Assembly (NCBI GenBank): GCA_015491485.1
Contig: WFVT01000284.1
Span: 243-64,242, forward strand
Source: Candidatus Zhuqueibacterota bacterium
GTDB lineage: Bacteria; Zhuqueibacterota; Zhuqueibacteria; Zhuqueibacterales; Geothermadaptataceae
DNA length: 64,000 nucleotides
Direction: 5' to 3'
In this document: piece after piece, positions 9,651 through 39,031 of the stretch
Layout of the letters: each line of letters starts with the position of its first letter
Numbering within the stretch: the stretch's first letter is position 1
Translations under genes and position numbers: made by a program
The notes under the pieces: model-generated
The model's input: only the letters and a program-made list of their open reading frames with translations
What the model was told of the DNA's origin: nothing
Databases searched by the model: none

Positions 9651-11060
9651 GTGAAAGCAAGCGCTGAAACCACTGCACTTCAAGTTGATGACGGCCAGTT
9701 GATCCAGGGAAATCCGACGTTTCATACCGTGTCGGAGTCCATCAGCCGAATTGTCGAGGTAAAGACCACCAAGGCGTGGTATGTGCTGTTCGGCTTCTTC
9801 AGCTCCCTGGCGCTGATGTTCGTGGTGATGATCGGCTATCTGTTTTGGGAAGGTACCGGAATCTGGGGCTTGCAGATACCGGTGGCCTGGGGCTGGGCGA
9901 TTGTCAACTTCGTGTTCTGGGTCGGTATCGGTCACGCCGGCACCCTGATTTCGGCGATTTTATTTCTGTTGCGCCAGCCCTGGCGAACCTCCATTAACCG
10001 CTTCGCCGAAGCGATGACGATTTTTGCCGTGATCTGCGCCGGAACATTTCCGGGCATTCACGTCGGTCGCGTCTGGGTGGCGTACTATATGTTCCCGCTG
10101 CCCAATCAAATGAGCATGTGGCCCAACTTCCGGAGTCCGCTGCTGTGGGACGTGTTTGCCGTGGGTACCTACTTTACCGTTTCGCTGCTGTTCTGGTACA
10201 CCGGATTGATCCCGGATCTGGCCACTTTGCGTGACCGCGCCAAAAGCAAAATCCGGAAAGCCGTGTACGGCGCTTTCGCTCTGGGATGGCGAGGCAGTCA
10301 TCGCAACTGGCAGCATTACGAATTGGCCTATTTATTACTTGCCGGCCTGGCCACGCCGCTGGTGCTTTCCGTGCATAGCGTGGTGAGTTTTGACTTTGCC
10401 GTAAGTAACCTGCCCGGATGGCATACCACGATATTCCCGCCGTACTTCGTCGCTGGTGCGATCTTCTCCGGTTTCGCCATGGTGATGACCCTGGCGCTGA
10501 TCGCGCGCAAGGTGTATAATGTTGAAAACTTCATCACCATGCGGCACCTGGAAAACATGAATAAAATTATCCTGGTCACCAGCTTGATGGTGGGATACGC
10601 TTACAGTATCGAGCTATTCATCGCCTGGTACAGCGGCAACCCCTTTGAGCGGTTTGCCTTCTGGAACCGCGCCACCGGGCCCTATGCCTGGGCGTATTGG
10701 ACGATGGTGTTCTGCAATGTCGTGGTACCCCAGGTGTTCTGGTCCCGGCGCATGCGCCGAAATATCCCGGTGATGTTTGTGGTCTCTATTTTGGTGAATA
10801 TCGGAATGTGGTTTGAGCGTTTCGTGATCGTCGTGAGTACCCTGGCAAACGACTTTTTGCCTTCCAGTTGGCATTACTTCAAACCCACCATCTTTGATGT
10901 TGGTATGCTCATCGGATCGTTTGGCCTGTTTTTCACGCTGTTCCTTTTGTTCTTGCGCTTCCTGCCCATGATCGCCATGGCGGAAGTGAAAGCCGTGTTG
11001 CCGCAGGCCGATCCGCACTATTATGAACACCATGGAAACGGAAAAGAAGCATCGGTTTAA
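9651..11060 (+). CDS. actC: Alternative complex III subunit ActC (NrfD/PsrC-like polytopic membrane subunit)
   Basis: 469-aa multi-TM protein directly after actB. GTG start. NrfD-like hydrophobic pattern. Confidence 0.85.
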
Positions 11061-21900: not shown

Positions 21901-22665
21901 GTGAAAGCGCTTTCAATGGCATTCTGGCTTGTTTTGATTTTGGGATCCGGAGTCATTGCACAGCCCGATGACCGGGCAACCGAAATTATTCGCCGTGCCG
22001 ATGAATTGCTGCGCGGAAAGACCCAGCAAGGGACTTATAAAATGATGGTTATCCGGCCGGAATGGCAACGCACCATGCGGTTTAAATTCTGGTCGGAAGG
22101 AACAGAAAAATCCTTTATCCTCATTCTGGAGCCGGCCAAAGAACGCGGCATCACCTTCCTGAAAATCAAAAACGAGATGTGGAATTATATCCCGCGAATC
22201 AATCGCATTATTAAGATTCCGCCTTCCATGATGCTGCAATCCTGGATGGGGTCTGATTTCACCAATGATGATCTGGTCAAAGAATCGAATGTAGTTGAAG
22301 ATTACCGCCATCAATTATTGGGAGAGGAAGTCCTCGAAGGGGAGCCCGCTTATAAACTTGAACTGACTCCAAAGGCGGAGTCGGCGGTGGTATGGGGAAA
22401 AATCGTTGAATGGATCCGTAAAAAAGACTACGTGCCCTTGCGGGCGGAATATTATAATGAACGCGGAGAGCGCATCCGAATCATGCTGTTCAAAGACATT
22501 AAACGGATGGGCGGACGGGTGATTCCGACCCGCATGGAATTGTTGAATGAAAAAAAGCCCGGCAACCGGACGGTTCTGGTGCTGGAAAATGTGGTTTTTG
22601 ATCGTCCCATTCCCCGGTCGGTTTTTACCATGACCTTTCTAAAGCGTGCGCGGTCATTGCGATGA
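21901..22665 (+). CDS. LolA-like outer-membrane lipoprotein-sorting (carrier) family protein
   Basis: Signal peptide MKALSMAFWLVLILGSGVIAQP. About 250-aa beta-rich protein with WMGSDFTNDDL and YKLELTPK motifs typical of the LolA_like family found next to FtsX permeases. Confidence 0.6.
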   Translation: MKALSMAFWLVLILGSGVIAQPDDRATEIIRRADELLRGKTQQGTYKMMVIRPEWQRTMRFKFWSEGTEKSFILILEPAKERGITFLKIKNEMWNYIPRINRIIKIPPSMMLQSWMGSDFTNDDLVKESNVVEDYRHQLLGEEVLEGEPAYKLELTPKAESAVVWGKIVEWIRKKDYVPLRAEYYNERGERIRIMLFKDIKRMGGRVIPTRMELLNEKKPGNRTVLVLENVVFDRPIPRSVFTMTFLKRARSLR

Positions 22666-23900
22666 AGAAATTCGTGAAAATTGCCTGGCGGAACATCTGG
22701 CGAAACCGCCGGCGCAGCCTGATCACGATGACGGCGATTATGTTCGCCATTTTGATTACCGGCGTCACCCGGTCGCTACAATACGGCACTTATGATACGC
22801 TGGAATCCTACGCGGTACGGCTGATGACCGGAGAAATGCAGCTTCAGAAAAAAGGCTTTTTTGAACACCAGACCCTGGCCTATTCCTTTCCTGAAAATTT
22901 GTACCCGTGGGATCGGCTGATGGATGAATACGATTTTGTGGAAGCATACGCTCGCCGAATCACCAGTTATGGGCTTGTCGGGTCCGCAACTACCAGCGCC
23001 GGTGCGATGATTATCGGGGTCGAGCCGGGACGAGAAAAACAGGTGACCTATTTTATGACCCAGCTTGCAGCCGGTGAAACCCTCGACGACGGCGACGACC
23101 GCCGTGTGCTTCTGGGGAAAGGATTGGCGGATAATTTAAACGTGACGCCCGGAGATACGGTGGTCGTGCTGACCCAGGGATTCCGGAACCAGTTGGGCGC
23201 GGATATGTATGTGGTGAAGGGACTGATTCGAAGCGGTAATCAGGAACTCGACCGTGCCCTGATGGTGATGCCGTTGCATAACGCGCAGGATCTGTTTTCC
23301 CTGTACGGCCGCATCACCCAGATCGTGCTTGCCACCCGTGATTTCCGCCGCACCGAAGATTACGCCAGCCGAATGCACATCGCCATGGACGGGGAAGAGC
23401 TGCGTGTGCTGCCCTGGCAAACGCTGATGCCGGAATTGTTGCAGCTCATTGCACTCGATAACATCAGCGGTGCGATTTTTCTCTTATTCCTGCTGCTCAT
23501 CGTCGGGTTCGAAATCATGAATACGACGTTAATGGCGATTATGGAGCGGATCAAGGAATTTGGCATCCTGCAGTCGTTGGGCGTGAAACCGCGGCAAATT
23601 TCGCTGATGCTGCTATTGGAAACCGGTATGAAAATTAGTCTCGCCGTCTCCACGGGCCTGCTGCTTACATTTCTTTTTATCCAACTGATCAAGGATTACC
23701 CGATTCCACTCAGTAGCGAGCTGAAAAAGGCGATGGAAGCCTGGGGATTTTATACGGATTTTTATTTCACCGATCGAGTCCGCGTGTTTATCGAGCCGCT
23801 GGTGGCAATTTCTGTTATTGCTGTGCTGTCGGTCATTTATCCGATCTGGACAGCCAGTCGCCTGCGGCCGGTGGATGCGCTGCGGAAAGGACAGCTTTGA
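22662..23900 (+). CDS. ABC transporter permease, FtsX/MacB/LolCE type (copy 1)
   Basis: N-terminus IAWRNIWRNRRRS plus TM1, a large extracytoplasmic domain, three C-terminal TMs, and a C-terminal YPIWTASRLRPVDALR motif. ATGA overlap with the upstream gene. Confidence 0.85.
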   Translation: MKKFVKIAWRNIWRNRRRSLITMTAIMFAILITGVTRSLQYGTYDTLESYAVRLMTGEMQLQKKGFFEHQTLAYSFPENLYPWDRLMDEYDFVEAYARRITSYGLVGSATTSAGAMIIGVEPGREKQVTYFMTQLAAGETLDDGDDRRVLLGKGLADNLNVTPGDTVVVLTQGFRNQLGADMYVVKGLIRSGNQELDRALMVMPLHNAQDLFSLYGRITQIVLATRDFRRTEDYASRMHIAMDGEELRVLPWQTLMPELLQLIALDNISGAIFLLFLLLIVGFEIMNTTLMAIMERIKEFGILQSLGVKPRQISLMLLLETGMKISLAVSTGLLLTFLFIQLIKDYPIPLSSELKKAMEAWGFYTDFYFTDRVRVFIEPLVAISVIAVLSVIYPIWTASRLRPVDALRKGQL

Positions 23901-24027
23901 TACCGTTTCTCCGTGTGCTGTGGACGGTTCGGCATGATGCGGAGCTGAGGCGACCTTTTTGAGGCCGCTACAACAGGCACAAGCTGCAGCGGTTTATTTT
24001 CAACTGAATCGTGGGTTTGCCTTTTTA

Positions 24028-24116
24028 TATCCGTCCGGTGAAGTACAGGTTGATTATCAGGGCGAGAAGCCATGTTTGCCTGGGGTCTAACGCGAGGCGT
24101 CCCTGCCGAGCGCTCC
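24028..24116 (+). repeat. Dispersed intergenic element, copy A
   Basis: TATCCGT..GAAGTACAGGTTGATTATCAGG..GAGAAGCCATG..GAGGCGTCCCTGCCGAGCGCTCC aligns along its length with copies at 33743 and 38526, in the same orientation. Confidence 0.7.
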
Positions 24117-24483
24117 ACCCACCTTCGGCCAGAGGCCTCGGGATAGTTAAAAATGATTCGGACGGCGGCACCGGGCTGGCAGGGAATTCTTTTACCGGCC
24201 GCCTTCGGGTTAGCAGGAAAAATTTGGGATTCACCGATCCGCCGGTCAGATTGAAGTTTGGCGCAGTGTGGAAACCTTGCGACAGGTTCAGAGCCTCTGC
24301 AAACCGCAGACGCATGAGTTGCTACTCGAGTTGACCTTCATCACACGGATGTGCCTTTTTCAGAAAGGCCGATAGAGAAAATTCAATCAAGAAAACGTAC
24401 CCTTTCCATAGGTAAGGAATGCGTAACGTTTGCGCATACAGCATATGCTTTAAACTAAAAACGACACCAGTCGGTGATCTCCC

Positions 24484-25707
24484 ATGAAAACGACCCTGAA
24501 GATTGCCTGGCGCAACATCTGGCGTAATCCCCGGCGGAGCTGGGTGCTCATAACCACCGTTGTCGTGGCGGTTATTGGATATGTGGGAACGACCAGCTTC
24601 ACGCGCGGATTTATGTATGAGATGGTCAATTCCGCCATTCGCTATTATGGGGGGCATATTCAGATCATCCCCGAAGGCTATGATACCAAGCCGAACATCC
24701 AATTGCGGCTGAGCCACCCGGATCGCATGGCCGAAGCCCTCGCCCGGGTGCCGGGAATTCACTTTGCTCCACTGGTCACATTCAAGGGCATGGCCAGCAG
24801 CAGCGAGGCCTCCGGCGGAGTGGTGATCAACGGGATCGATCCTCAAAAAGAGCGGCAGGTAACCATTGTATCCGAAAAGATCATCGCCGGAGACTATTTT
24901 GAATCCGAAACGGCCAATGCGGCAGTGATCGGGGAAGAATTGGCTGAACGGTTGAACGTTCGGCTGGGGGAGAAAATCATTCTCATGGCCAGCGCACTGG
25001 ACCAAAACATCGCCAGCGGGGCGTTCCGGGTGGTCGGGATTTTTCGAACGGTCAGTACAGATTTTGACCGTGCTTTTGTGTTTATCCGGCTCGACGATGC
25101 GCAGAAGCTCATCGGGTATCAGGATGAGATCACGGCCTTCTCGATCCACCTCCAGCAAGGTTATGATTTGCAACAAACTGTGGAACGGCTACGGGAGACG
25201 CTGCCCCCGGGTGATTTTAAAATCCAGACCTGGCGCGAACGCAACCCGGTTCTGGTGCTGTCGCTGGAAGTGTATGAATATTTTATTTTTCTTTTTCTGC
25301 TTATCATCGTGACGGCGGTGGCGTTTACTATTGTCAATTCGTTCCTCATGGTGATTTACGAGCGCATCCGCGAGTTTGGGGTGATGATGGCCATGGGAGT
25401 GTTGCCCAAACGCATCCGGAGGATGCTCTATTGGGAAACGCTGTTTTTGACCCTGATCGGCTCGACCGTCGGGATTGTCCTATCCTATTTGATTTTTGGA
25501 TACTGGCGCCGCCATGGGCTTGATCTCAGCGCCACCTCCGATGCCCTGGGGAAACTTGGTATCAGCACCGTCATTTATCCGGAAATTCTGATGTCAGACC
25601 TGCTGATCGGACTCGGTGTCATCGTAAGCCTCACCTGGATTGCCGTGCTGTATCCAGCCTATAAAGCAAGCCGGTTTCATGTCGTCGATGCATTGAATTT
25701 TGTTTAA
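24484..25707 (+). CDS. ABC transporter permease, FtsX/MacB/LolCE type (copy 2)
   Basis: Same architecture and N-terminal IAWRNIWRNPRRS motif as copy 1; C-terminal YPAYKASRFHVVDAL. Confidence 0.85.
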   Translation: MKTTLKIAWRNIWRNPRRSWVLITTVVVAVIGYVGTTSFTRGFMYEMVNSAIRYYGGHIQIIPEGYDTKPNIQLRLSHPDRMAEALARVPGIHFAPLVTFKGMASSSEASGGVVINGIDPQKERQVTIVSEKIIAGDYFESETANAAVIGEELAERLNVRLGEKIILMASALDQNIASGAFRVVGIFRTVSTDFDRAFVFIRLDDAQKLIGYQDEITAFSIHLQQGYDLQQTVERLRETLPPGDFKIQTWRERNPVLVLSLEVYEYFIFLFLLIIVTAVAFTIVNSFLMVIYERIREFGVMMAMGVLPKRIRRMLYWETLFLTLIGSTVGIVLSYLIFGYWRRHGLDLSATSDALGKLGISTVIYPEILMSDLLIGLGVIVSLTWIAVLYPAYKASRFHVVDALNFV

Positions 25708-33330: not shown

Positions 33331-33742
33331 GGTTCCTTCGAATCGTTTAATTGGTCGTTTACTGGAATTATTTAAATCGGATCAAAGACTTGCAATGTCG
33401 ATATGGCCGGCCGGCGACAGTAGAGCCGTAATTGCAATGCGTGTCGCCGGATGGCACCATCATAGCGGTTTCCAACCGCAAACGCCCGCCGGAAGCGGGG
33501 AGAGAAAGACAGTGACGCTCAAAATATTTCAGATTATAACAATACGCAATCATGAATTGAAAATCAATGAGGAAGTGCCCAAAAACGGAACGGGCGCCGT
33601 TGATTTTCAATCGGTTCCAGCAAGAAAACTGTTCATCCAGCCACGAAAATGCTTTCCGCCGGGAAGATGGTGCTGCGTTTTCGGGGCGGTGAGAATTTCA
33701 TGGAGGGTGGACACGGAGCAATGTTCCGGGCTGGATTGTTTG

Positions 33743-33832
33743 TATCCATTTTATGAAGGCCAGGTTGATTTTCATAACGCGAAGGCATCCTCACCGGTGC
33801 TCCGAGTGTGAAGGCGTCCTCGCGGGCGCTCC
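33743..33832 (+). repeat. Dispersed intergenic element, copy B
   Basis: TATCCAT..ATGAAGGCCAGGTTGATTTTCAT..CGAAGGCATCCTCACCGGTGCTCCGAG..GAAGGCGTCCTCGCGGGCGCTCC. 38 of the first 44 core positions are identical to copy C by manual count. Confidence 0.7.
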
Positions 33833-34035
33833 GCGAACCCCGCAGGGATGATTCGCCCATCCCCCGGTTCGAAACGAGCAAAACCCGGGAACCGGGATAA
33901 CAATTTGTCGTTGTCAGGGGTGACGGCTGGAGAAACATTCGGTGAACACAGCCGGAATGTAAAAAATATGTAAAGGTTCAAATAAAACGGACAAACCGGG
34001 CGATAATAAGGGCATAGAGAACATTTTTCCCGGGA

Positions 34036-34542
34036 ATGCGTGATGGTAACATGCACAGTCTCATATTAAAGCCGTTTGAATGCCGTCTGATCGAATCCCT
34101 TTTGCCCGTCATTCTGCCGTCCATCCCCGTTCAGGAGCAACGATTTCGCCGACGGGTGATGTATCATATCGATCGATTTTTGATTAAAATGCCGTTGTTG
34201 TTCCGGTGGCTGTTTCATCTGGGAGCGTGGCTGTTTGATGTTTCGCCGATTTTGTTCTTATCCCGTCCGCAACGCTTTCACCGTAGCCCACTGACTTTCC
34301 GTCAATACTGGACAGATCGTACGTACCGCACCTCCGTGATGCCGCTCTACCGATGGTTTCACATTATCAGGGGCCTGATTTTGCTGGTGTATTACAGCCA
34401 GGACGAGCAGCACCGCCGTATGCGCTATTACCCGGCCGATTGGGTGAAATTCAATGTAATGAAGCGCCGACGGAAATTGAATTTAGTGGAAGAGGCTCCT
34501 CATGACTCACAACCTTCGCGGTTCCAGCCCCGATCCTCCTGA
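34036..34542 (+). CDS. Hypothetical protein preceding the GMC oxidoreductase
   Basis: 168-aa ORF with hydrophobic segments (LLFRWLFHLGAWLFDVSPILFL). Overlaps the GMC gene by 41 nt. No recognised motif. Confidence 0.45.
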   Translation: MRDGNMHSLILKPFECRLIESLLPVILPSIPVQEQRFRRRVMYHIDRFLIKMPLLFRWLFHLGAWLFDVSPILFLSRPQRFHRSPLTFRQYWTDRTYRTSVMPLYRWFHIIRGLILLVYYSQDEQHRRMRYYPADWVKFNVMKRRRKLNLVEEAPHDSQPSRFQPRSS

Positions 34543-36028
34543 GCGCTGCCAGATATGCGTCATCGGCTCCGGAGCCGGCGGCGCCGTGGTGGCGGCCGAA
34601 TTGGCGGAAGCCGGTTTCGATGTGGTGGTGCTGGAGGAAGGAGGTTACTACCCTACCTCTGAATTGTCCCATGACCCGCTACGCATGCTGCCGCGGCTGT
34701 ACCGCAATGCCGGCGGCGACAGCACTCTCGGTCGTGCGCCGGTCATGTACACCGAAGGCCGCTGTGTCGGCGGCAGCACCGTTATCAATGCCGGGGTGTG
34801 TTACCGTACCCCGTCGGATGTGCTTCACCGGTGGGCTATGGGCCTTGGCAGTGATGAGTTCTTGCCGGAAAACCTTGCTCCGCTGTTTGAGCGCGTGGAA
34901 AAGGAATTGCATGTGAGTCGGGTTCCGGAGTCCCTTTACAGCAAAGATTCAAAACTCATGCTGGAAGCCGCCCGTGCGAAAAATTATCATACCGTTCCGG
35001 TGATGCGAAATATCCATGCGTGCCAGGGCACAAACATGTGCATTCTGGGGTGTCCCACCGGCGCAAAACAAAGCACTCTGGTAACCTATTTACCGCGGGC
35101 GGAGCGCGCGGGGGCGCAGATCTTTGCCAATTGCCGCGTCCAGAAAATCGAGCTTGACGGAGCGAAGGCGACCGGAGTGGAATATCACGTGCTTGATCCG
35201 CTGACCGGCAAACGCGGTCCGACCCGTTTTTTGCGAGCCGATTGGATTTTTGTGGCCGGCGGCGGGATGCAGAGCCCGTCCATCCTGTTTCGCAGCGGCA
35301 TTACCCGGAAATTGAAATGGGTGGGAAAGACTCTGTTTCTGCATCCCAATACCAAATGTGTGGCGATCTTTCCGGATGAAGTGAACGCCTGGCAGGGCTC
35401 TATCCAGGGCTTTCAGGTGGATGAGTTCGCCGACCAGGGTTTGACGTTCGGTACCACATTTTTGCCGCCCGGCATTCTGGCGCTGGCGCTGCCTTTTTAT
35501 GGCCGTGAAATGGACCGCATTATGGAACAGTACCACCATCTGAGCGTTTGGGGCGTGCTGGTGGAAGATTCCCATCCGGGCAGGTTGCGATTTACGCCCA
35601 AGGGCCTGCCGATCGCAAGCTATAAACTGACCCGCGCCGATGTCCAACGGTTCAAATTCGGGATTCTGAAATTGGCGGAGCTGTTTTTTGACGCCGGTGC
35701 CAGAAAAGTATTGCTGCCGATCCGTGGATTTGAATATGCCGAACATCCGGATGACCTGCGCATGCTGGAGCGTTATCCCTTGAAGCCGGGGCAGTTAAGC
35801 CTGTTTTCAGTGCATTTGATGGGTACCTGCCGTATGGGGCATTCTTCCCGTACGTCGGTGGTGGACGTCAATCACCGCGTTCACGGTTTGCGCAATCTGT
35901 TTATCGCCGATGCCAGTGTGTTCCCCGGGCCGATCCGCGTCAATCCGATGGTGACCATCATGGCCATGGCCACTCGCGCCGCACAGAATTTCGTGGAAAA
36001 ACAGCGAAACTTTCTGCAGGCGGCTTAA
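34502..36028 (+). CDS. GMC-family FAD-dependent oxidoreductase
   Basis: N-terminal dinucleotide fold CVIGSGAGGAVVAAELAEAGFDVVVLEEGG. C-terminal HLMGTCRMG and LFIADASVFP are typical of GMC enzymes. Confidence 0.85.
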   Translation: MTHNLRGSSPDPPERCQICVIGSGAGGAVVAAELAEAGFDVVVLEEGGYYPTSELSHDPLRMLPRLYRNAGGDSTLGRAPVMYTEGRCVGGSTVINAGVCYRTPSDVLHRWAMGLGSDEFLPENLAPLFERVEKELHVSRVPESLYSKDSKLMLEAARAKNYHTVPVMRNIHACQGTNMCILGCPTGAKQSTLVTYLPRAERAGAQIFANCRVQKIELDGAKATGVEYHVLDPLTGKRGPTRFLRADWIFVAGGGMQSPSILFRSGITRKLKWVGKTLFLHPNTKCVAIFPDEVNAWQGSIQGFQVDEFADQGLTFGTTFLPPGILALALPFYGREMDRIMEQYHHLSVWGVLVEDSHPGRLRFTPKGLPIASYKLTRADVQRFKFGILKLAELFFDAGARKVLLPIRGFEYAEHPDDLRMLERYPLKPGQLSLFSVHLMGTCRMGHSSRTSVVDVNHRVHGLRNLFIADASVFPGPIRVNPMVTIMAMATRAAQNFVEKQRNFLQAA

Positions 36029-38411: not shown

Positions 38412-38525
38412 ATATATTATCGGAAGATAACGAATGGAGTGGATAAACGTGTCAATTTGTTAAAATTTGGAGCAGAATATCTCCCGTTTTCTCTTTCATG
38501 CCGGATATTCATGATGGAATACGGG

Positions 38526-38614
38526 TATCCGTACAGTGAAGTACAGGTTGATTTTCAGGTCACGAAGGCATCCTCACCGGTCGTATAGCGCGAAGGCGTT
38601 CTCGCCAAAAGCAC
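38526..38614 (+). repeat. Dispersed intergenic element, copy C
   Basis: TATCCGT..GTGAAGTACAGGTTGATTTTCAGGTCACGAAGGCATCCTCACCGG..CGAAGGCGTTCTCGCC. Bracketed by the 10-mer GGGTATCCGT at 38523 and 38644. Confidence 0.7.
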
Positions 38615-39031
38615 ATTCATCAACGACGGCCGCCGTTTACAATGGGTATCCGTGACCATCTGTATCATCCGTTTCATCCGCGTTTGCGTTTTCCTGCCAG
38701 CGCCGCACAGTGCACAGAGATGCGCAGCCCCAAAACGTGGAATGAGGCGAGGAAGTTCCCATTCCCGTACATAAGCCGATAAAACGCCAAAATTTTCTTT
38801 TATATGGATAAAACATTTTTAAATTTATGAACTAAGCGCCGGATGGTGGCGCTGATAAAAAGCCATCAAGGCAAGCCCGAGCGGGTCGAACCATGAGAAA
38901 TCGATACCACCGAAATCCCATTCGGGCGATTCAGGAATATCTGTTGTTTGTGGCGTATCCGACATGCTGCGGCTTATCATCACGGAGGGATCACGCCACC
39001 TGTGAAAATAAATAAGCATAGAGGAGAAACC

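What the first reader, a model, noticed from the sequence alone, without database searches (positions are those of the whole stretch)
33743..33832. Dispersed ~90-nt intergenic element (reference copy B): small hairpin plus two tandem GAAGGCRTYCTC units
Three long intergenic spacers (23901-24483, 33331-34035, 38412-39031) each carry one copy of the same ~90-nt sequence, all in + orientation. The shared layout is TATCC(G/A)T, about 6 nt, then (G/A)TGAAG..CAGGTTGATT(T/A)TCA, then CGAAGGCATCCTCACCGG, then a second unit GAAGGCGT(C/T)CTCGC. By manual count B and C are identical at 38 of the first 44 core positions. A and C differ at 1 of the first 22. The two tandem units are about 28-29 nt apart, which is not a multiple of 3. 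The copies show no codon-like substitution pattern and have stops in different places, so this looks like a nucleotide-level element rather than a peptide. The flanking genes are unrelated (ABC permease, carboxyltransferase/GMC, phosphoesterase/dehydratase). That argues for a REP/MITE-like repeat, an sRNA family or a shared protein-binding module rather than a gene-specific leader. I do not recognise it as any named RNA or IS end.
Basis: seen in the sequence. Interest (0 to 1): 0.55.

Follow-up and report, generated by a model that had tools for sequence, protein, structure and literature searches.

The report
MITE transposon family in KSB1 bacterium
The repeated ~90-nt intergenic sequence is the 5' part of a small non-coding "hitch-hiker" transposon (a MITE, 210-360 bp) that has spread through the genome of an uncultured hydrothermal KSB1 bacterium; it is a new family of an ordinary kind of element.

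Summary
But the 90-mer is only the 5' part of a larger element.

A metagenome scan found 16 more copies in one JGI metagenome. That metagenome also holds this lineage, candidate division KSB1. Complete copies there are 208-212 nt and end in 13-bp terminal inverted repeats (GTATCCGTCCGGT...ACCGGACGGATAC). They are flanked by 7-8-bp target-site duplications in 11 of 11 complete copies (permutation p<1e-5). They have no coding capacity, sit between unrelated housekeeping genes in mixed orientation, and often coincide with contig ends.

The interior is a run of five 26-33-nt units with the core GCGARGGCGTYCYCGC.

- **Copy A** is a complete 326-nt long-variant copy (24027-24352) with a perfect TSD, GCCTTTTT.
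- **Copies B and C** are degenerate or truncated 5' parts.

No Rfam match appeared even at E<=1, and there is no covariation. No transposase with matching ends was found.

Verdict: a new MITE family, that is, a new member of a known kind. Low to moderate interest.

The parts
24019..24026 (+). Left target-site duplication of copy A (GCCTTTTT)
   Evidence: Identical 8-mer directly flanks both ends of the element
24027..24352 (+). Copy A: complete 326-nt 'type 2' MITE. 5' TIR ATATCCGTCCGGT (24027-24039); 5' module plus one degenerate unit plus the last unit (to about 24172); a 180-nt 3' extension; degenerate 3' TIR ATCACACGGATGT (24340-24352)
   Evidence: nhmmer hits to model positions 2-54 and 127-192. 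Full-length alignment with L115 and L119, which end in GGCGGATAC. blastn 24022-24327 against L115 and L119
24353..24360 (+). Right target-site duplication of copy A (GCCTTTTT)
33742..33823 (+). Copy B (the finding): 5' part of a diverged MITE copy. Degenerate 5' TIR GTATCCATTTTAT, the 5' module and two units (33781, 33810)
   Evidence: nhmmer model positions 1-81, E=5e-12
33824..33899 (+). Probable diverged 3' part of copy B, ending in a degenerate 3' TIR-like ACCGGGATAAC. No convincing TSD
   Evidence: Read from the sequence. Not detected by the long-form profile. Inference only
38525..38630 (+). Copy C: 5' half of a long-form MITE (TIR GTATCCGTACAGT, the 5' module, units 1-2). 88-97% identical to the metagenome copies
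   Evidence: nhmmer model positions 1-106, E=9e-31; blastn
38631..38653 (+). Rearranged tail of copy C. A remnant of the 3' end (GCCGTTTAC) is joined to a second GTATCCGT motif instead of the 3' TIR. The same structure is present in the 96%-identical relative L128
Evidence: Sequence; start of the L128 contig.

Best explanation
[quoted passage not shown] It is a non-coding, non-autonomous DNA transposon that is cut and pasted by a transposase encoded elsewhere.

The transposase would recognise the 13-bp terminal inverted repeats (GTATCCGTCCGGT / ACCGGACGGATAC). It would make staggered cuts 7-8 bp apart in the target, and repair of those cuts leaves the flanking direct duplications.

The family has spread in a lineage of candidate division KSB1 from hydrothermal sites. 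The interior is modular:
- a 26-nt 5' module (GAAGTACAGGTTGATTTTCAGGGCAC);
- then up to four further 28-33-nt units with the core GCGARGGCGTYCYCGC, an imperfect GCGAGG-CGT-CCTCGC hairpin;
- then a G+C-rich hairpin region and the 3' TIR.

Units have been gained or lost, giving subfamilies of about 150-210 nt. A 326-357-nt variant carries an extra 3' segment.

In the window, A is a complete long-variant insertion between two MacB permease genes. B and C are old, degenerate or truncated copies.

Shown: TIRs, TSDs, multiplicity, dispersal, absence of coding capacity, and absence from two relatives at about 80% nucleotide identity. Inferred: mobilisation in trans, a DDE-type transposase, and the origin of the internal units by tandem duplication.
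For: - **More copies:** 16 further copies lie on 16 contigs of one metagenome, each starting sharply at GTATCC with unrelated upstream flanks.
- **Defined ends:** 9 complete long-form copies are 208-212 nt, with 13-bp TIRs and 91% mean pairwise identity.
- **Target-site duplications:** flanking 7-8-bp direct repeats are present in 11 of 11 complete copies, including window copy A (8/8, GCCTTTTT) and L119 (8/8). They show 6-8 identities, against a control mean of 2.5 and maximum of 6. None of 100,000 permutations reached the observed sum.
- **Unrelated neighbours:** flanking genes are unrelated housekeeping genes (trypsin-like protease with PDZ domains, ROK regulator, glycogen debranching enzyme, TamB, methylmalonyl-CoA mutase, TPR protein and others). 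None is a transposase.
- **Orientation:** orientation relative to neighbours is mixed, and all copies are intergenic.
- **Assembly breaks:** many contigs end inside or beside the element, as expected of a multicopy repeat.
- **Not coding:** copies differ by frame-breaking 1-nt indels, and the longest open stretch (61 codons) contains no methionine codon (ATG).
- **Not a structured RNA:** there is no Rfam match, and TIR substitutions are uncompensated.
- **Lineage-restricted:** the element is present in assemblies 96-99% identical to the window. It is not detected in the 22-kb orthologous loci of two relatives at about 80% nucleotide identity.
Against: - No autonomous element or transposase with matching ends was found in the window or next to any copy.
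- No empty or filled site polymorphism was found. Every close relative examined shares the same insertions. The distant relatives' spacers are too diverged to give a clean empty site. Recent mobility is therefore inferred, not shown.
- One type-2 copy (L115) has no recognisable TSD.
- The element is G+C-rich (57%), unlike the classical AT-rich MITE description.
- That all 16 metagenome contigs come from one KSB1 genome is likely but not proven.
Confidence: 0.9

Rival explanations
1. A family of small RNA genes or cis-regulatory leader RNAs. The terminal inverted repeats would form a closing stem, and the repeated units would be protein-binding hairpins (a CsrB-like sponge or a leader shared by several operons).
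For: All three window copies lie upstream of, and in the same orientation as, + strand genes. The consensus folds better than its shuffles (z = -3.9 as single-stranded DNA). The units contain small hairpins.
Against: - No Rfam match even at E<=1.
- Orientation relative to genes is mixed in the 16 other copies, including antisense placements and placements between convergent genes.
- Substitutions in the terminal stem are uncompensated in 5 of 9 copies. Only 1 of 62 predicted pairs shows a double change, and that change is shared by two related copies.
- A locus-specific 7-8-bp duplication flanks each copy. An RNA gene family has no reason to show this.
- No promoter-like site lies in or before the element.
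Confidence: 0.04
2. A REP/BIME-type repeat: extragenic palindromes spread by a RAYT (IS200-like HUH) transposase, or maintained as binding sites for gyrase or IHF.
For: It is intergenic, G+C-rich, contains short imperfect palindromes (GCGAGG-CGT-CCTCGC) and is modular like BIMEs.
Against: REPs are 20-40-nt palindromes without terminal inverted repeats of a larger unit and without target-site duplications. Here each 210-nt unit has 13-bp TIRs and a 7-8-bp TSD. No RAYT-like gene lies in the window or beside any copy.
Confidence: 0.03
3. Remnants of a duplicated coding fragment, or a short conserved peptide gene.
For: One frame of the consensus is open for 61 codons. The ORF listing gives ORFs across copies A and B.
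Against: That frame has no methionine codon (ATG). Copies differ by single-base indels that break any frame. Substitutions show no codon pattern. The flanks are unrelated immediately outside the TIRs.
Confidence: 0.01

Closest known systems
BOX elements of Streptococcus pneumoniae (boxA - boxB(n) - boxC)
   Same: A small interspersed intergenic repeat, regarded as a MITE, built from a 5' module, a variable number of tandem internal modules and a 3' module (PMC3049150, read). Here the layout is a 5' module, 1-4 further units of 28-33 nt, and a 3' module.
   Different: No sequence relationship is expected, as the phylum differs. For BOX I did not see TSDs reported in the passages of PMC3049150 returned. 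Here TSDs of 7-8 bp are clear. The internal units here are diverged from one another (Tandem Repeats Finder finds nothing), rather than near-identical boxB copies.
BrickBuilt MITE of Porphyromonas gingivalis (a MITE containing a minisatellite)
   Same: A MITE with small inverted-repeat ends, 'leader' and 'tail' subunits, and an internal tandem repeat whose copy number varies. It is always intergenic and has about 19 copies per genome (PMC4596501).
   Different: BrickBuilt's repeat is a 23-nt unit without spacers. Here the units are 26-33 nt, each a conserved ~15-nt core plus a unit-specific spacer. Promoter activity was shown for BrickBuilt and was not tested here; the consensus scans found no promoter-like site.
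IS66-family insertion sequences (possible source of the transposase)
   Same: IS66 members make 8-bp direct repeats and have terminal inverted repeats that start GTAAGCG (PMC11946415). This element makes 7-8-bp duplications and its TIR starts GTATCCG, identical at 5 of 7 positions including GTA.
   Different: The TIR here is 13 bp, against 20-30 bp. No IS66-type transposase with these ends was found. The link is a lead from two shared features, not a tested relationship.
Correia elements (Neisseria) and ERIC/RUP-type bacterial MITEs
   Same: Non-coding TIR-bounded elements of 100-200 bp that are dispersed in intergenic regions and can affect neighbouring transcripts (background in PMC3049150).
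   Different: Correia elements have 26-bp TIRs and, from my own knowledge, a TA duplication. This element has 13-bp TIRs, 7-8-bp duplications and an internal array of units.

Membership tests
MITE (non-autonomous TIR transposon) | Small size (tens to a few hundred bp) | tested here: met
   208-212 nt (long form) and 326-357 nt (type 2)
MITE (non-autonomous TIR transposon) | Terminal inverted repeats | tested here: met
   13-bp GTATCCGTCCGGT / ACCGGACGGATAC with 0-2 mismatches in all complete copies
MITE (non-autonomous TIR transposon) | Target-site duplications that differ from locus to locus | tested here: met
   7-8-bp flanking direct repeats in 11 of 11 complete copies; none of 100,000 permutations reached the observed sum. 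One further type-2 copy (L115) lacks one
MITE (non-autonomous TIR transposon) | Many dispersed copies at unrelated loci | tested here: met
   3 copies in the window plus 16 contigs of one metagenome, next to unrelated genes
MITE (non-autonomous TIR transposon) | No coding capacity | tested here: met
   No methionine codon (ATG) in the one open frame; frame-breaking indels between copies
MITE (non-autonomous TIR transposon) | A cognate autonomous IS with matching TIRs in the same host | tested here: inconclusive
   None in the 64-kb window, in the 16 contigs, in viral contigs or in plasmids. Whole KSB1 genomes could not be scanned
MITE (non-autonomous TIR transposon) | Insertion polymorphism (an empty site in a relative) | tested here: inconclusive
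   Relatives at 96-99% identity share the insertions. Relatives at about 80% lack the element, but their spacers cannot be aligned
REP/BIME | A 20-40-nt palindromic unit without TSD, associated with a RAYT transposase | tested here: not met
   The unit is 210 nt with TIR plus TSD. No RAYT-like gene was seen
Any Rfam RNA family | A covariance-model match at or near the gathering score | tested here: not met
   0 matches at gathering score in the whole window. Nothing overlapping the element at E<=10 in spacer B. Nothing at E<=1 in spacers A and C or in a full-length copy
IS66-derived MITE | 8-bp direct repeats | tested here: met
   7-8 bp. The family feature is taken from PMC11946415
IS66-derived MITE | TIR of 20-30 bp starting GTAAGCG | tested here: inconclusive
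   The TIR starts GTATCCG (5 of 7 identical) and is perfect for only 13 bp
IS66-derived MITE | An IS66-type DDE transposase (with TnpA/TnpB accessory genes) bounded by the same ends | not testable with these tools

The most novel reading that the evidence does not exclude
The family could be more than a passive parasite. One reading is that its array of GCGAGG-CGT-CCTCGC hairpin units has been co-opted in KSB1 as a portable transcription-attenuation, RNA-processing or protein-binding module. An example would be copy A, which sits inside the TetR - MacB1 - MacB2 - ABC ATPase gene row. A second reading is that it is mobilised by a transposase group not yet catalogued, since no known family has GTATCCG ends. 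Nothing here excludes either reading, and nothing here supports them beyond the conserved modular interior.
Probability: 0.1. Interest if true: 0.45.

Novelty: new member of a known kind. Interest (0 to 1): 0.25.

Why it matters
MITEs are common in bacteria, so the kind is not new. The family itself appears undescribed: no paper in the library holds both 'KSB1' and 'miniature inverted-repeat transposable', and there is no match in Rfam or among plasmids.

Practical value:
- It explains part of the unusually long intergenic spacers here: 326 of 583 nt in spacer A, roughly 160 of 705 in B and about 130 of 665 in C.
- It explains why assemblies of this lineage break at these places.
- It gives a ready marker (TIR plus consensus) for strain typing and for finding the partner transposase in KSB1 genomes.
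- It warns against annotating these sequences as sRNAs or riboswitch-like leaders.

If the internal hairpin units affect transcription, copy A could matter for expression of the MacB-type ABC transporter genes.

Tried and rejected
- **Genome-contig scan, wasted.** The 17-base pattern GAAGNNCAGGTTGATTNTCA returned 97 or more matches, all chance or coding, among them a conserved Ignavibacteria gene. None carried the rest of the element.
- **Viral contigs:** no match to the 29-nt 5' end.
- **Plasmid collection:** no blastn match to the consensus.
- **Rfam:** nothing at gathering score or at permissive E-values.
- **Tandem Repeats Finder:** found nothing on a full copy, because the internal units are too diverged.
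- **RNAalifold on the three window copies:** a weak, unconvincing structure. On nine full copies there was no meaningful covariation.
- **Search for an empty site:**
  - Orthologous loci in relatives L124 and L127 (about 80% identity) lack the element but cannot be aligned.
  - L125, L128, L131 and L133 (96-99% identity) share the insertions.
  - The L110 locus is also filled in MAG GCA_015490205.1.
- **Promoter and terminator scans:** nothing above chance within the element.
- **Considered and rejected:** sigma-54, ECF or sigma-70 promoter; iterons; CRISPR-like array (the 'spacers' are conserved between copies); peptide gene.

Full report

Yes. The three spacers contain one copy each of a shared sequence, all on the + strand. 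The pattern TGAAGNNCAGGTTGATTWTCA occurs exactly three times in 64 kb (24039, 33754, 38537), against 0.04 expected by chance. The repeat finder reports the family at 24028, 33743 and 38526.

B and C match at 38 of 44 positions from TGAAG, and A and C differ at 1 of 22. The GAAGGCRTYCTC units are 29 nt (B) and 28 nt (C) apart. Copy A lacks clean units. The ORFs flanking the spacers are as described: MacB/FtsX permeases, a carboxyltransferase, a 168-aa protein plus a GMC oxidoreductase, a metallophosphoesterase and an aconitase-family protein.

**2. More copies, and the real boundaries**

My first collection scan was badly designed. It used 17 specified bases against 596 Gb, and it returned only chance and coding matches.

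A 22-base pattern against the JGI metagenomes gave 16 contigs, all from one metagenome (Ga0256830), each with one copy. Aligned, these copies all begin sharply at GTATCC, with unrelated sequence upstream.

Nine copies are complete. They are 208-212 nt long and start with GTATCCGTCCGGT. They end with its exact inverted complement ACCGGACGGATAC. Mean pairwise identity is 91%.

The 7-8 bases immediately outside the two ends are the same at each locus but differ between loci. Examples are GGTGGAAC, GATTGGAA and CCGGCAAC (long form) and ACCCGATG (type-2 copy L119). I scored the 11 complete copies, counting the best of the 8-mer and 7-mer registers. The flanks share 6-8 identities. Mismatched pairs of copies give a mean of 2.5 and never exceed 6. 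None of 100,000 permutations reached the observed sum.

Terminal inverted repeats plus locus-specific target-site duplications are the signature of cut-and-paste transposition.

**3. Anatomy**

The consensus is given. It consists of:
- the TIR;
- a 26-nt 5' module, GAAGTACAGGTTGATTTTCAGGGCAC;
- four further units starting at consensus positions 40, 68, 101 and 134 (periods 28, 33 and 33 nt), each with the core (GC)GARGGCGTYCYC(R)CC;
- a G+C-rich hairpin region (CCCTCGGCCAGAGGCCTCGGG, then GCAT-AAAAAG-ATGC);
- the 3' TIR.

The core is an imperfect palindrome (GCGAGG-CGT-CCTCGC). This is why neighbouring units can also pair with each other in the predicted folds. The units are too diverged for Tandem Repeats Finder.

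The number of units differs between copies and subfamilies: L112, L117, L122 and window copies A and B have fewer.

A second form ('type 2': window A, L115, L119, and partly L112) keeps the 5' module and the last unit. It has a decayed internal copy of the 3' TIR, then about 180 nt more, and ends in a second 3' TIR (GGCGGATAC in L115 and L119). Perfect 8-bp duplications flank window A (GCCTTTTT) and L119 (ACCCGATG). L115 has none.

**4. The three window copies**

A profile built from the nine complete copies finds only these three places in the window.

- **Copy A (24027-24352)** is a complete type-2 insertion between the two paralogous MacB permease genes. Its TSDs are at 24019-24026 and 24353-24360.
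- **Copy C (38525-38630)** is the 5' half of a long-form copy, 88-97% identical to the metagenome copies. Its tail is rearranged: a remnant of the 3' end (GCCGTTTAC) is followed by a second GTATCCGT. The same arrangement is present in a 96%-identical relative.
- **Copy B (33742-33823)**, the reference copy of the finding, matches model positions 1-81. It is the most diverged, and its TIR has decayed to GTATCCATTTTAT. A probable 3' end (ACCGGGATAAC, about 33899) and the lack of a TSD are read from the sequence only.

**5. Host and distribution**

Aconitases at least 90% identical to the window's are named 'candidate division KSB1 bacterium' in NCBI. The window matches hydrothermal metagenome scaffolds and several MAGs at about 99%.

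The metagenome that yielded the 16 copies also contains this lineage. Contig Ga0256830_1042534 encodes a MacB permease 98.8% identical to the window's, and it starts within spacer A, with the MITE beginning about 89 nt in. One of the 16 loci (L110) is present, with its MITE at the same site, in MAG GCA_015490205.1.

Relatives at 96-99% identity share insertions A, B and C. Two relatives at about 80% nucleotide identity (L124, L127) show no profile hit in 22 kb of orthologous sequence. Their spacers share only short islands with the window, so I obtained no clean empty site. The family is therefore lineage-restricted, but ongoing mobility is not demonstrated.

**6. What it is not**

- **Not a known RNA.** There were no Rfam matches at gathering score in the window. 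In spacer B the only matches at E<=10 (E 0.45-3.3) are far below gathering score and lie outside the element. Nothing appeared at E<=1 in spacers A and C or in a full-length copy.
- **Not a structured RNA family.** Five of the nine complete copies carry substitutions in the terminal stem that break pairing. Only one of 62 predicted pairs shows a double change, and it is shared by two related copies.
- **Not a leader.** The 16 other copies lie in all orientations relative to neighbours. They occur upstream, downstream, antisense and between convergent genes, next to unrelated housekeeping genes.
- **Not coding.** There is no methionine codon (ATG) in the one open frame, and copies differ by frame-breaking indels.
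- **Not REP/BIME.** Those lack TIR plus TSD.
- **No promoter-like site.** Nothing above chance was found in the element.

**7. Mechanism**

The most likely mechanism is a non-autonomous DNA transposon mobilised in trans by a DDE-type transposase. That enzyme would bind the 13-bp ends and make cuts staggered by 7-8 bp. The transposase was not found in the window, beside the copies, in viral contigs or in plasmids.

One lead is the IS66 family. Its members make 8-bp duplications and have ends that start GTAAGCG (PMC11946415), compared with GTATCCG here. This rests on two features and is untested.

The internal units most likely arose by tandem duplication and loss. The same is described for boxB modules in pneumococcal BOX elements (PMC3049150) and for the minisatellite inside the BrickBuilt MITE of Porphyromonas gingivalis (PMC4596501). 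Whether the units bind a protein or affect transcripts is unknown.

**8. Verdict**

It is a new family of a known kind. It is useful for annotation, assembly and strain typing in KSB1, but it is not surprising. Interest is 0.25. Confidence that it is a MITE is 0.9.

Noticed in passing
window 38810-38854 (and L124 about 9699-9745): Spacer C is otherwise unalignable with the relative at about 80% identity. Within it, a 29-nt island AAAACATTTTTAAATTTATGAACTAAGCG is identical in both genomes and is followed in both by a G+C hairpin (GCGCCGGATGGTGGCGC in the window). It lies about 200 nt upstream of the aconitase-family gene and may be a promoter, operator or small RNA feature. A second shared island, AAACGTGTCAA(T/A)TTGTT, lies at about 38445-38461.
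   Followed up: partly
window 33558-33568 and 33599-33609: Spacer B holds an inverted repeat TGAAAATCAAT ... GTTGATTTTCA, about 30 nt apart and about 150 nt upstream of copy B. It shares the 10-mer TTGATTTTCA with the MITE's 5' module. GTTGATTWTCA-like sites are over-represented in the window (12 against 2.8 expected). The meaning is unknown.
   Followed up: no
window 38525, 38646, 38955: There are three GTATCCG motifs (the start of the TIR) in + orientation within 430 nt of spacer C. The second and third are not followed by recognisable MITE sequence. They could be relics of older insertions of the same or a related family.
   Followed up: partly
L111, L117, L120, L122 (contig ends), L128:1-63, L133 (element at about 89-235): Metagenome contigs of this lineage repeatedly stop or start inside or within about 100 nt of the element. 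The MITE is a cause of assembly fragmentation in KSB1 MAGs.
   Followed up: partly
window 24174-24339; L115 about 2060-2240; L119 about 853-1040: The 180-nt 3' extension of the type-2 form is conserved at about 70-75% between three loci and has no counterpart in the 210-nt form. It could be a piece of the parent transposon's end.
   Followed up: no
window 22662-23900 and 24484-25707: Two paralogous MacB/FtsX permease genes lie in tandem; their first 57 nt are 79% identical (D2). They are followed by an ABC ATPase and preceded by TetR and TP_0789-like genes. The MITE copy A sits between the two permease genes, inside what looks like one operon.
   Followed up: no
window 34036-34542 / 34502-36028: A 168-aa protein without any Pfam match overlaps the start of the GMC oxidoreductase gene by 41 nt. 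It is kept next to that gene in all relatives, at 139-168 aa. It is possibly a small subunit of the dehydrogenase.
   Followed up: no
L004, L011, L022, L024, L029, L035, L041, L042, L048 and others: The short pattern of the wasted genome scan hit the same conserved sequence (…GAAGAYCAGGTTGATTCTCA…, apparently coding) in about 15 Ignavibacteria or Melioribacter genomes. It is unrelated to the MITE.
   Followed up: no
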